Below, piece after piece: positions 55,391-57,306 of a stretch of DNA of 64,000 bases (within the stretch, counting starts at the first letter, position 1; every line of letters begins with the position of its first letter). This DNA comes from a virus: positions 1 to 64,000 of IMG/VR virus record IMGVR_UViG_3300017605_000154. One strand, 5' to 3'. Under the pieces are notes generated by a model. The model made no database searches, was not told the DNA's origin, and saw only the letters and a program-made list of their open reading frames with translations. Made by a program: the position numbers and the translations under genes.

Positions 55391-55900
55391 CTAAGGGCCG
55401 GGACAACTCCATCCGTCGCCGAATCTAGCATAATGACCAAGTGCTGCGTTGTATTGGTCACGCGGCGTATGTCTTACATGCCAAGGCGGTGCCCCCATGT
55501 ATGCAGCATCCGCGTTATATTCTCTCCACGAAATTCCGAACGCACTGACGAAGCTACTGTTACTGTGTTCCCAATTAAAGTGCGTCTCGCAACGGGCGAC
55601 ACCTTTCCAATTCCAAGGCAACCATGCATTCCAGTTGTACTGGTAGTCATTCCAGAATGCTTCCGCACGTTTGTAGACCTTACGTGCGATTGTACAACTA
55701 CGCTGCCAAGGAACTTCCTTACACTTCTTCTTGTTGGGCGCGAGCAACCAGCTGTGATTATTGAAGAAGCGCATTACATTTGTACTCTGCCGAAACTTGA
55801 TCGCTGCACTTTCGGACTCCTGTTTTGCACTTGCCACTTGCGTATGTCCGCTGAAGCCGGCGATGGCTAACAGCGTTAGTAACGTAGTTAGCAGCCTCAA
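55391..55900 (-). CDS. secreted Rpf/lysozyme-like transglycosylase
   Basis: Signal peptide; WKGVARCETHFNW...PRDQYNAA...GWSC resembles the Rpf WxxVAxCESxxNW...EQIxxA...WPxC core; AAGGAGG SD. Confidence 0.7.
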   Translation of the reverse strand: MRLLTTLLTLLAIAGFSGHTQVASAKQESESAAIKFRQSTNVMRFFNNHSWLLAPNKKKCKEVPWQRSCTIARKVYKRAEAFWNDYQYNWNAWLPWNWKGVARCETHFNWEHSNSSFVSAFGISWREYNADAAYMGAPPWHVRHTPRDQYNAALGHYARFGDGWSCPGP

Positions 55901-55930
55901 AACATGATCCTCCTTGTTTGTTTACAAAAC

Positions 55931-56032
55931 AGTGGAAGGGCCGCTTATGCATCTACATGTGCCCGCAGGGGGAGCGAGCATCAAGCAGAAGTTTGCAGCC
56001 CTTCCACTTTTTGCGTAGCCGTACTACGCAAA
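55931..56032 (-). ncRNA. structured element upstream of the Rpf-like gene
   Basis: 14-bp AGUGGAAGGGCUGC/GCGGCCCUUCCACU stem (U-G pair on - strand) preceded by a UUUGCGUAG/CUACGCAAA hairpin. Confidence 0.55.
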
Positions 56033-56033
56033 C

Positions 56034-56255
56034 TTAGGACACGTCTTCTCCTATGACCCCTGGTACCAATTCCCACTCAGGGAAATACTTGTGAAGAGTG
56101 TCCATCATGTCTGACTTTTCTGAATACCCCTCCGAGGGCGCGATAATCTCACCGCGTGGCCCGTCAGCCAGTATGTGAAAATACCAGAGGTTGTTTGTCG
56201 TGCGAAAGTATTCGATCCTGCGCTTCGTCTTGTTGCGCTTCAGCAAGTTGCGCAT
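56034..56255 (-). CDS. DUF1508/YegP-like protein
   Basis: WYFHILA..GEIIAPSEGY. Confidence 0.75.
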   Translation of the reverse strand: MRNLLKRNKTKRRIEYFRTTNNLWYFHILADGPRGEIIAPSEGYSEKSDMMDTLHKYFPEWELVPGVIGEDVS

Positions 56256-56269
56256 TACTCTCCGATCTT

Positions 56270-56867
56270 CGTTAGAGCTACGCCTACCTCAGAGATGGGG
56301 GGAGACGCTAACACCTCTGATCCCACCAATTTTGCCACGTATCCCTCGGCGTAGCTCAATGGGATAGTCCGACCGACCCCTACGAATACGTCGTAGGTTA
56401 CTCTTGACTACCCCATTCAACTACGGTAGTTCTAGTGTGCGCGGCCTACGGTCATACGATGAGTACCAGAAATTTACTCATCTAGCTACGAGTTTGCCGT
56501 GAATGATTCCTGGCGCATCATCCATCTTTCCTGTAGTTTGCCACTCTACAGGCACACACTAGTTCTGAAAACTACGGGATAGTGGACTATCGCAGACTTC
56601 GTCCACTATCGGGTGATTGGTGAGAGTCTTTGCATTGACCCTTTGTTCTGCGACCAAAATTGAGCTACGTTGGTTAGCAGACTTGCACATCGTCTCGCTC
56701 ATGTATCTACTTATTACCGGACGATCGACCCCCGTAGCTCAATGAGCTAGAAGACATTCCTCGGTTATGGACTTACCCTATTTGGAAGGCAGTAGCCATA
56801 ACTCTGTACTCGTACATCTAGCTCATTCAACTACGCAAAGTTTCAACTTTCCCCCTTGCGCGATCCT
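56270..56867 (-). ncRNA. modular structured RNA with recurring CGUAG-stem closures
   Basis: ORF-free; modules 56835-56733, 56576-56426, 56425-56350 with 17-19-bp closing stems; G-U pairs only on the - strand; directly downstream of a promoter. Confidence 0.7.
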
Positions 56868-56873
56868 CTGAGG

Positions 56874-56902
56874 AGCGTACTCCCCAGGGCCGCTCCTGTC
56901 AA
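56874..56902 (-). promoter_or_regulatory. sigma70-type promoter overlapped by a 7-bp inverted repeat
   Basis: TTGACA-17 nt-TACGCT; AGGAGCG(56871-77)/CGCTCCT(56891-97). Confidence 0.8.
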
Positions 56903-57009
56903 TGCGTGGCGGCGCGTCCTGGCCGTCCGGAGCGGGGGTCAGCATCGACCTCCCCCCGCGCTCGGACGCTCGGAGAACGGCTCCTGTGGCCGTACAGAAC
57001 CTACGAACT

Positions 57010-57240
57010 TTAGAACCCTGCATCCTTTGCCTTACCGCCCTTGCAACCGATATGCGGATACCATGCATAGGGATCAGAACCATGCCAGAAGGTCAAACCG
57101 CAATCCTCGCAAACTTGCGGAATCTTGGCACTGTATGCCGCGACTCCATGCGGTTCGTCCCGCCTGTCCTGGGACTTAACGACAACCTTGCGGGCATGCT
57201 CGGCGATTGCATCCAACGACTCACTAAAGATGATCTTCAT
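57010..57240 (-). CDS. small Cys-containing hypothetical protein
   Basis: AGGAGG SD; CEDC...HIGC. Confidence 0.65.
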   Translation of the reverse strand: MKIIFSESLDAIAEHARKVVVKSQDRRDEPHGVAAYSAKIPQVCEDCGLTFWHGSDPYAWYPHIGCKGGKAKDAGF

Positions 57241-57306
57241 GTTTCCTCCTGAGTGTTATCTAACTGTATGCATCGCTCACCTTCCTTTCGTTAGCCTCAA
57301 GAATGA

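What the first reader, a model, noticed from the sequence alone, without database searches (positions are those of the whole stretch)
56270..56867. Promoter-driven modular RNA built from repeated CGUAG-closed cassettes (best candidate for a new system)
Seen: ~600 nt without an ORF start right after a TTGACA-17-TACGCT promoter. On the - strand, two modules (56835-56733, 103 nt; 56425-56350, 76 nt) close with the same stem, CGUAGUU-G-AAUG...CAUU-G-AGCUACG (7 bp, a G.G mismatch, then 11-12 bp), but have unrelated interiors. A third (56576-56426, 151 nt) opens with CGUAGUU and closes with an 11-bp CUAGUGUGUGC/GCGCACACUAG stem around three hairpins. CGTAG/CTACG occurs 13 times in 56014-56835, against roughly 2 expected by chance. 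The G-U pairs in these stems form only on the transcribed strand, which points to RNA rather than DNA structure. Inference: a constant handle around variable cargo looks like a polycistronic precursor cut into several small RNAs (decoys, sponges or guides), or a cassette array that grows by recombination at the handle. It does not resemble CRISPR or any RNA family I recognise.
Basis: partly seen in the sequence, partly recalled or inferred. Interest (0 to 1): 0.85.

Follow-up and report, generated by a model that had tools for sequence, protein, structure and literature searches.

The report
Modular phage RNA array, Ro60-less
A soil phage carries a ~600-base non-coding leader made of two kinds of conserved folded RNA units that are in no catalogue. 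One kind has a constant "handle" closing interchangeable interiors, and the array sits where the phage's closest relatives keep a Ro60 protein gene and its Y RNAs.

Summary
Both 'CGUAG-closed' modules, the third three-hairpin module and the 13-fold CGTAG/CTACG cluster are at the stated coordinates. The structure is specific to the minus (transcribed) strand.

With relatives from IMG/VR and soil metagenomes, the two modules belong to a new family of at least 14 lineages, here called H modules. Each has:
- a lower stem, 5'-CGUAG(U/C)UGAAUG / 5'-CAUUGAGCUACG, with a near-invariant G.G mismatch and a conserved U.G wobble;
- a covarying upper stem (98% paired, 14 of 18 pairs with double changes);
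- exchangeable heads, some conserved across lineages.

Most units are followed by an 'anti-handle' that can replace the 5' handle, giving two nearly iso-energetic folds. The third module (M2) is also conserved, in three lineages.

There is no Rfam match, tRNA or paper. The array lies in a variable slot that, in the window's nearest sister phages, holds a Ro60 (TROVE) gene and a YrlA-like Y RNA array containing an H module. This complete genome has no Ro60.

My best reading is handle-plus-head small RNAs or a leader element docked by a shared protein. Ro60 itself, RNase III-type processing and leader control remain open.

The scan noted this same stretch twice before on this genome. It has seen other handle-and-cargo arrays beside Ro60-like genes on other DNA, but not this handle.

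The parts
56874..56902 (-). Promoter-like site TTGACA-17-TACGCT
   Evidence: The sequence is present and identical in L072. Similar TTGACA-N17-TAnnCT sites sit at array starts in L004, L073 and L196. The sigma-70 consensus scan does not call it.
56733..56835 (-). H module 1: handle, 11-bp upper stem and 65-nt head (head family A, shared with L072)
   Evidence: Inverted repeat I1. Covariance model hit of 70.2 bits, E 6.5e-17. The orthologue in L072 is 90% identical.
56659..56669 (-). Anti-handle 1 (CGUAGCUCAAU), a perfect complement of the 3' handle of module 1
   Evidence: 11-bp Watson-Crick helix with 56743-56733 ([I3], 70). The P1 and P2 folds differ by 0.4 kcal/mol.
56578..56610 (-). Perfect 10-bp hairpin between anti-handle 1 and M2
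   Evidence: Inverted repeat I16, present in the minimum-energy fold. Conservation was not examined.
56426..56576 (-). M2 domain: closing stem (56562-56552 with 56442-56432), three hairpins, conserved strands AGUGGCAAA and ACGGCAAACUCGUAGCUAG
   Evidence: Homologues lie in L199:4340-4500 and L077:5665-5840(-). 14 of 37 consensus pairs keep pairing through changes on both sides.
56350..56425 (-). H module 3: handle, 12-bp upper stem and 28-nt head
   Evidence: Direct repeats D1/D2 with module 1. Covariance model hit of 52.3 bits, E 8.9e-12.
56275..56284 (-). Anti-handle 2 (GGCGUAGCUC), 11 nt upstream of the Shine-Dalgarno GGAGAG (56263-56258)
   Evidence: 10-bp perfect helix with 56357-56348 ([I12], 70). 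Identical in L072.
56034..56255 (-). First ORF of the transcript: 73 aa, with a weak DUF1508 match
   Evidence: ORF list. Pfam DUF1508 E = 0.005, 17.1 bits, below the 22-bit cut-off.
55927..56028 (-). CGUAGUACGGCUACG mini-hairpin (56028-56014), then an 18-bp-arm hairpin followed by UGUUUUGU, which looks like a terminator
   Evidence: Inverted repeat I2 and sequence. The terminator scan does not call it because the loop is too long.

Best explanation
The interval is the non-coding first ~600 nt of a leftward phage transcript. It is assembled from two conserved structured-RNA families that are in no catalogue.

Its parts:
- Two H modules. Each is a long hairpin with a sequence-constant lower stem (5'-CGUAGUUGAAUG / 5'-CAUUGAGCUACG, one G.G mismatch next to a U.G wobble), a freely covarying upper stem and an exchangeable head.
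- One M2 domain, with a closing stem and three hairpins.
- An anti-handle 63-65 nt after each H module. It can displace the 5' handle from the 3' handle, so each unit has two nearly iso-energetic folds.

Most likely mechanism (inferred): the distorted constant helix is a docking site for one protein shared by these phages or their hosts. The head is the variable functional part. This is handle-plus-head RNP logic, as in Y RNAs, with units made from a polycistronic leader. The anti-handle decides, or follows, whether the handle helix exists, for example after binding or cleavage.

Evolutionary setting (shown): the array sits in an accessory slot between conserved backbone genes. In the window's closest sister phages that slot holds a Ro60 (TROVE) gene and a YrlA-like Y RNA array that includes an H module. 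This phage has no Ro60. H modules occur far more widely than Ro60, so the partner is probably not the phage Ro60.
For: Family and covariation:
- Nine handle-only pattern hits all carry 7-12 further pairs of unrelated sequence that the pattern did not select for.
- In 19 modules, 98.2% of cells are paired and 14 of 18 pairs change on both sides. 0 of 500 shuffles reach this, and slid controls pair at 29-44%.
- The G.G mismatch is kept in 18 of 19 modules and the U.G wobble in 16 of 19. The outer stem covaries, for example CGUAGUU/AGCUACG against ACAAAUU/AGUUUGU and UGCAUU/AGGUGCA.
- The covariance model finds members it was not trained on, at 42-52 bits.

Anti-handle:
- A 10-16 bp helix is present in 12 of 15 CGUAG-type units.
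- The flanking pairs covary and include G.U pairs that exist only on the sense strand.
- The two folds differ by -4.9 to +3.0 kcal/mol in 11 of 12 units.

Heads are under selection: head families B and C are nearly invariant while their stems covary.

M2 is conserved, with 14 of 37 pairs changed on both sides across three lineages.

Slot and phylogeny:
- The gene order is shared.
- L004/5/6/8, fetched only by TROVE similarity, carry an H module inside their YrlA-like array.
- The helicase tree puts the window in a 100/99-supported clade with the TROVE-bearing L195 and L146.
- No TROVE or DUF2828 is found in the complete genome.

Cassette exchange: the comparison with L072 places the replacement junctions at the handles.
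Against: - There are no expression or RNA-end data, so transcription, processing and protein binding are all inferred.
- The partner protein is unidentified.
- Every unit lies in sense orientation in a 5' leader or intergenic region. The last anti-handle usually sits 9-15 nt before a Shine-Dalgarno sequence. A purely cis-acting role would explain this equally well.
- Part of the module set was collected with a descriptor that required pairing near the core, which inflates the pairing percentage for those rows.
- The promoter is not called by the consensus scan.
Confidence: 0.45

Rival explanations
1. The H modules are true Y RNAs. The handle is a Ro60/Rsr binding site, and in this Ro60-less phage the RNAs use, or soak up, the host's own Rsr.
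For: - The architecture is stem-distortion-stem with a variable loop, as described for Y RNAs (PMC4201824, PMC12135203).
- The 5' strand GUUGAAUG differs by one transition from the YrlA motif GNCGAAN0-1G.
- H modules lie inside the arrays upstream of TROVE genes in two sister lineages, on the same strand and within 0.7-1.2 kb.
- The window's closest relatives carry TROVE.
- CGUAG also heads the Ro-linked modules of cultured actinophages, as (G/A)UGCG(U/C/A)AG.
Against: - The phyletic pattern is against it. The YrlA-like GGGUUACUUC modules follow TROVE strictly, forming arrays only in TROVE-bearing loci. H modules occur in about 12 lineages without TROVE, including genomes estimated 94-100% complete.
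- The H module is absent from the TROVE-bearing L007 and from BRock, Rabbitrun and Alone3.
- There is no Rfam Y_RNA or YrlA hit, even at E <= 10.
- There is no tRNA-like domain.
- The host is unknown, so whether it has an Rsr cannot be checked.
Confidence: 0.2
2. The units are cis-acting leader cassettes. The 18-25 bp hairpin forms first and is cut by an RNase III-type enzyme. The freed 3' handle then pairs with the anti-handle to give a protective 5' hairpin just upstream of the ribosome-binding site. Alternatively, the P1/P2 exchange tunes translation of the downstream gene.
For: - Stems of 18-25 bp with one internal mismatch match what I recall of RNase III processing sites in T7 early mRNA (established knowledge; not checked here).
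- Every unit is sense-oriented in a leader or between genes.
- The last anti-handle ends 9-15 nt before the Shine-Dalgarno sequence in 4 of 6 units.
- The two folds are near iso-energetic, so P1 forms first during transcription and P2 can take over later.
- Head family B always precedes the same gene.
- In L142 the 3' handle abuts the Shine-Dalgarno sequence.
Against: - Predicted Shine-Dalgarno accessibility differs between the two folds in only 2 of 6 units.
- A processing stem alone would not need heads that are large, structured and more conserved than the stems.
- The L004 unit sits inside a Y RNA array with no anti-handle and no adjacent gene.
- Sequence constancy of the handle across phages whose helicases are only 26-50% identical points to sequence-specific recognition rather than generic double-stranded RNA cutting.
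Confidence: 0.3
3. The heads are base-pairing guides, sponges or decoys for phage or host RNAs.
For: The heads are variable, exchangeable and in part conserved across lineages.
Against: No significant complementarity to the rest of the 77-kb phage genome: the best matches are 12 nt at E about 2. The host is unknown, so host targets could not be searched.
Confidence: 0.1
4. The repeats act as DNA: recombination or transposition sites (REP/REPIN, MITE ends, integron attC-like sites) or invertible-segment repeats.
For: - GTAG next to an imperfect palindrome recalls REP elements.
- GTTGAAT fits the attC core GTTRRRY.
- The 3' handle and anti-handle form perfect 11-16 bp inverted repeats around a short segment.
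- Module content is exchanged at the handles.
Against: - G.U pairs in P1, in the upper stems and in the P2 flanks would be C.A mismatches on the other strand. The model scores 70 bits against 32, and the fold z-score is -8.1 against -3.7.
- Upper stems covary instead of being conserved as protein-bound terminal repeats would be.
- The handle occurs at this one locus only, not dispersed through the genome.
- The cargo holds no ORF.
- The attC core order is reversed.
Confidence: 0.05

Closest known systems
Bacterial and phage Y RNAs with Ro60/Rsr (YrlA, Rfam RF02553; YrlB; Thermus phage phiLo Yrl1/2)
   Same: - A lower stem formed by the two ends, with a helix distortion beside a (C/U)GAA-type motif.
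- A variable effector part.
- Several units in a row on one transcript.
- The same genomic slot as the Ro60 + YrlA-like arrays of the sister phages, which themselves contain an H module.
   Different: - No Ro60 gene in this genome.
- No tRNA-like T and D arms.
- No Rfam hit.
- UGAA in place of CGAA, and a 1x1 G.G mismatch in place of a bulge or large internal loop.
- A conserved anti-handle, which has not been described for Y RNAs.
- H modules are phyletically uncoupled from TROVE.
RNase III processing hairpins of phage early transcripts (T7 R0.3-R1.3 type)
   Same: Long hairpins with one internal distortion and conserved lower-stem sequence, placed between or ahead of genes on polycistronic phage transcripts.
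   Different: As far as I recall, T7-type sites carry no large conserved heads and no anti-handle. No sequence similarity was tested, and cleavage here is unproven.
Bistable leader RNAs (attenuators and riboswitch expression platforms)
   Same: One strand (the 3' handle) has two mutually exclusive, conserved partners, and the two folds have similar energy.
   Different: The conserved part is the switching helix itself, not a ligand pocket. There is no terminator or consistent Shine-Dalgarno sequestration, and the sensed signal is unknown.
Handle-and-cargo RNA arrays beside Ro60-like genes noted earlier in this scan (e.g. e1-272486, e1-5378700)
   Same: One conserved handle with interchangeable interiors, arranged in rows in phage genomes.
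   Different: Those arrays sit beside a Ro60-like gene, and by their descriptions they use a different handle. This handle was not found elsewhere by the scan's sequence look-up.

Membership tests
YrlA-type Y RNA (Rfam RF02553) | Match to the family covariance model at or above the gathering score (69 bits) | tested here: not met
   No hit in the window at gathering score, nor at E <= 10 in 55800-57300. As a positive control, sister-phage arrays give sub-threshold YrlA hits of 33-44 bits.
YrlA-type Y RNA (Rfam RF02553) | tRNA-like domain with T and D arms (PMC4201824) | tested here: not met
   ARAGORN finds nothing and there is no GGUUCGAAUCC-type T arm in the array. Only the anti-handle CGUAGCUCAAU resembles the 5' half of a D arm.
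YrlA-type Y RNA (Rfam RF02553) | Encoded within about 4 kb of a Ro60/TROVE gene, on the same strand | tested here: not met
   No TROVE or DUF2828 in the complete 77-kb genome, and no hidden similarity in neighbouring ORFs. The feature is met for H modules in sister loci L003 and L004/5/6/8.
YrlA-type Y RNA (Rfam RF02553) | GNCGAAN0-1G motif near the 5' end | tested here: inconclusive
   The handle reads GUUGAAUG, which has one transition (C to U) in an 8-nt motif.
Y RNA in general | Binds Ro60/Rsr | not testable with these tools
   This needs gel-shift or pull-down experiments. The complex predictor takes proteins only.
CRISPR array | Equal-length direct repeats with regular spacing | tested here: not met
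   The repeats are inverted pairs with irregular spacing of 383-410 nt, and there is no direct-repeat family of more than two copies.
REP/REPIN elements | Many dispersed copies in intergenic regions of one genome | tested here: not met
   Handle-like 12-mers that form pairs occur only at 56350-56835 in the 77-kb genome.
Integron attC cassette array | R''(RYYYAAC)...R'(GTTRRRY) order, cassettes carrying ORFs, adjacent IntI | tested here: not met
   The core order is reversed (GTTGAAT lies at the 5' end of the sense strand) and the cargos are 28-110 nt with no ORF. An integrase was not searched for.
Type III toxin-antitoxin RNA array (ToxI-like) | Tandem near-identical direct repeats upstream of a ToxN-like gene | tested here: not met
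   No tandem identical repeats. The downstream ORF is 73 aa with only a weak DUF1508 match.

The most novel reading that the evidence does not exclude
H modules with their anti-handles are a new kind of self-contained, bistable RNA cassette. A sequence-constant, mismatch-bearing helix is recognised by an as yet unknown factor. It presents interchangeable functional heads, flips to a second fold by strand exchange, and spreads among phages by recombination at the handle. This would be an RNA counterpart of a gene cassette system, independent of Ro60.
Probability: 0.3. Interest if true: 0.85.

Novelty: new variant of a known kind. Interest (0 to 1): 0.66.

Why it matters
Handle-plus-cargo RNA arrays beside Ro60 are emerging as a common but poorly understood feature of phages.

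This locus adds two structured-RNA families that are in no catalogue. It also offers a natural comparison: the same slot in related phages holds Ro60 with Y RNAs and an H module, or H modules alone, or neither. That separates the RNAs that depend on Ro60 from those that do not.

The conserved two-state design, in which one strand has two covarying partners at near-equal energy, is directly testable. It gives a short, defined handle for finding the partner protein.

If the heads prove to be exchangeable functional parts, this would be a compact system by which phages shuffle small RNA functions.

Tried and rejected
**Catalogue and database searches**
- Rfam at gathering and at E <= 10 gave nothing relevant. 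The one hit, MIR528 at 16 bits, is spurious.
- ARAGORN found no tRNA.
- blastn of the array against 50,697 phage records found no match.
- The exact and the degenerate handle pattern found 0 hits in 185,579 prokaryote genomes.
- Literature searches found no description.

**Pattern scans dominated by chance**
- The loose 9+9 pattern gave 62 hits and the TTGAATGAG...CTCATTGAG pattern gave 63. Nearly all lack inner pairing, and only L002, L089 and L142 were real.

**Ro60 in this genome**
- A hidden Ro60 was looked for with Pfam TROVE, DUF2828, tblastn, hhalign against the 438-aa and 288-aa ORFs, and a protein-atlas look-up. All were negative or blank.
- PHROGs found no family for 10 neighbouring ORFs.

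**Functional tests of the array**
- Antisense targets of the array in the phage genome: none above chance.
- Shine-Dalgarno accessibility under the P1 and P2 folds differed in only 2 of 6 units, which is inconclusive.
- The consensus promoter scan calls no site, and the terminator scan's only hit is a plus-strand chance match inside module 3.

**Expression data**
- Sequencing runs: no RNA holder is listed.

**Readings rejected**
- CRISPR, attC, REPIN, type III antitoxin, retron and decayed-tRNA readings were considered and rejected for the reasons given in the membership table. No reverse transcriptase was seen among the ORFs scanned; a dedicated search was not run.

Full report
**1. What the window is**

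The window is the first 64 kb of a complete 77,257-bp virus record with direct terminal repeats, 52% G+C. It encodes a Mu-like portal and protease, a family A DNA polymerase with a UDG domain, a primase, a PD-(D/E)XK nuclease and an SNF2 helicase. It has no close cultured relative: the helicase is at most 27% identical to any phage in GenBank.

**2.

- Module 1 (56835-56733), module 3 (56425-56350), the shared handle, the G.G mismatch and the 11-12-bp continuation are as described. So are the third module (56576-56426) with its 11-bp stem and the 13 CGTAG/CTACG copies in 56014-56835.
- The window-wide rate predicts 2.25 copies, giving Poisson P about 8e-7.
- The minus-strand RNA folds far better than shuffles (z = -8.1) and better than the plus strand (z = -3.7).
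- Rfam gives no hit at the gathering threshold and nothing relevant at E <= 10. ARAGORN finds no tRNA.
- The consensus promoter scan does not call the promoter, because its -10 TACGCT matches only 3 of 6. TTGACA-N17-TAnnCT does recur at the start of the arrays in relatives.

**3. The modules belong to a family (H modules)**

A pattern of the two 11-12-nt handle strands alone found one IMG/VR contig, seven soil-metagenome contigs and two further IMG/VR contigs. It found none in 185,579 prokaryote genomes.

- All of these hits continue with 7-12 more base pairs of unrelated sequence, which the pattern did not require.
- Looser patterns returned mostly chance hits, which I filtered by pairing.
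- Descriptor scans, with 0-2 hits in reversed-sequence controls, and a covariance model brought the family to about 14 independent lineages.
- In 19 modules, 98.2% of cells pair and 14 of 18 pairs change on both sides. No shuffle reaches this, and slid controls pair at 29-44%.
- The invariant core is 5'-UUGAAUG / 5'-CAUUGAG, with a G.G mismatch in 18 of 19 modules and a U.G wobble in 16 of 19.
- The outer stem covaries: CGUAGUU/AGCUACG, ACAAAUU/AGUUUGU, UGCAUU/AGGUGCA, UACUU/AGGUA.
- Sense-strand model scores are about twice the antisense scores.
- Caveat: rows collected by the descriptor were selected for pairing near the core.

**4. A second, conserved fold**

In 12 of 15 CGUAG-type units, a stretch 27-190 nt downstream is the complement of the 3' handle plus 2-5 flanking bases, giving 10-16 bp.

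- The flanking pairs differ between lineages (GUAG/CUAC, UUAG/CUAA, UAGGU/GCCUA, UGGG/CUUA, UUGUC/GGUGG, CC/GG). They include G.U pairs that exist only on the sense strand.
- In the window these anti-handles are 56669-56659 and 56284-56275.
- Forcing either helix gives energies within -4.9 to +3.0 kcal/mol of each other in 11 of 12 units. The design is therefore bistable.
- The last anti-handle usually ends 9-15 nt before a Shine-Dalgarno sequence. Predicted Shine-Dalgarno accessibility, however, changes in only 2 of 6 units.

**5. Heads and cassette exchange**

- L072 shares the upstream gene, promoter, module 1, the last 3' handle and the downstream gene with the window at 90-94% identity. 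The 368 nt between the two 3' handles are replaced by 320 unrelated nt, and about 100 nt are inserted before module 1.
- Some heads recur across distant lineages and are nearly invariant while their stems covary. Family B is L075a/L077/L190, always before the same gene. Family C is L070b/L174.
- The heads have no significant complementarity to the rest of the phage genome.

**6. The third module is a separate conserved domain (M2)**

Its signature strands are AGUGGCAAA, ACGGCAAACUCGUAGCUAG and CGUAGGCCGCGCACACUA. These and its fold recur in L199, where the order H module, anti-handle, M2 matches the window, and in L077. 14 of 37 consensus pairs are changed on both sides among only three sequences.

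**7. Genomic setting: the Ro60 slot**

The first relative found (L002/L003) has a TROVE (Ro60) gene 0.7 kb downstream of its H module.

- Loci fetched only by similarity to that protein (L004/5/6/8) carry an H module with a covaried outer stem. It lies inside an array with sub-threshold YrlA hits and many (G/A)UGCG(U/C/A)AG-N5-6-GGGUUACUUC modules.
- The same motif sits upstream of the Ro-like genes of Streptomyces phages BRock and Alone3 and Gordonia phage Rabbitrun, which have no H module.
- All H-bearing phages except L142 share a backbone with the window. The order is 180-aa and 123-aa genes, a variable slot, a Zn-finger protein and the SNF2 helicase.
- I surveyed 54 helicase relatives, of which about 35 have at least 3 kb upstream of the helicase. 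Among those the slot holds TROVE plus a Y-like array in two, H modules without TROVE in about eight, and only ORFs in about 24.
- On the helicase tree the window lies in a 100/99-supported clade with TROVE-bearing L195 and L146. The simplest history is therefore loss of Ro60 and the YrlA-like modules in the window's lineage.
- H modules are scattered over the whole tree. They occur in genomes estimated 94-100% complete that lack TROVE.
- The YrlA-like modules thus track Ro60 and H modules do not.

**8. Reading**

Shown:
- It is a real, sense-strand, multi-domain structured RNA made of two families that are in no catalogue.
- The handle is constant, the stems covary, and the heads are exchangeable and partly conserved.
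- Each unit has a conserved alternative helix.
- The array occupies the Ro60/Y RNA slot, without Ro60.

Inferred:
- The distorted constant helix is a protein docking site.
- The units work as handle-plus-head RNAs.
- The anti-handle couples this to a second state.

Whether the partner is host Rsr (Y RNA proper), an RNase III-type enzyme (processing plus a protective 5' hairpin), or something else cannot be decided without RNA-end and binding data. No RNA run holding the stretch is listed, and no paper describing the element was found.

The scan had flagged this same stretch in overlapping reads of this genome, and had seen other handle-and-cargo arrays beside Ro60-like genes on other DNA.

Noticed in passing
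L007:2180-2356 (+): A manA RNA (Rfam RF01745) match above the gathering score (57.4 against 55.2 bits) lies between the Y RNA-like array and the TROVE gene of a sister phage.
   Followed up: no
L079:4598-4720, L080:4474-4700, L081:4304-4800: Just upstream of the Ro-like genes of Streptomyces phages BRock and Alone3 and Gordonia phage Rabbitrun lie 2-4 unannotated modules. Each starts (G/A)UGCG(U/C)AG-N5-6-(G/C/U)GGUUACUUC. They are probably Y RNA-like genes missing from the GenBank records; in Rabbitrun, small hypothetical CDSs are annotated over them.
   Followed up: partly
window 1-64000: CGTAG/CTACG is over-represented across the whole window (175 against 106 expected, 0 of 100 shuffles reach it). 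Its strand preference flips at about 24 kb, which does not simply follow gene orientation.
   Followed up: no
window 55391-55900 (-): Another first-stage note called this 169-aa ORF downstream of the array Rpf-like. It has no Pfam hit at E <= 0.01 and no PHROG hit. Homologues sit in the same slot in several relatives.
   Followed up: partly
L196:6100-6960 (+): One relative carries three H units: two in tandem, then a small gene, then a third. Each group ends with its own anti-handle about 12-15 nt before a GGGAGG ribosome-binding site.
   Followed up: partly
L109:172-449 (-) and L089:10453-10715 (-): A single 56-kb phage genome has two separate H-module loci with different outer stems. One unit has G.U in place of the G.G mismatch.
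   Followed up: partly
window 55927-56028 (-): After the 73-aa ORF come a CGUAGUACGGCUACG mini-hairpin and an 18-bp-arm hairpin followed by UGUUUUGU. This may be a terminator or processing site separating the first ORF from the 169-aa gene.
   Followed up: no
L142:5764-5847 (-): An H module with a different outer stem sits 2 nt before the ribosome-binding site of a gene. The host is a low-G+C, 48-kb complete phage only distantly related to the others (helicase 26% identical), so the motif crosses phage groups.
   Followed up: partly
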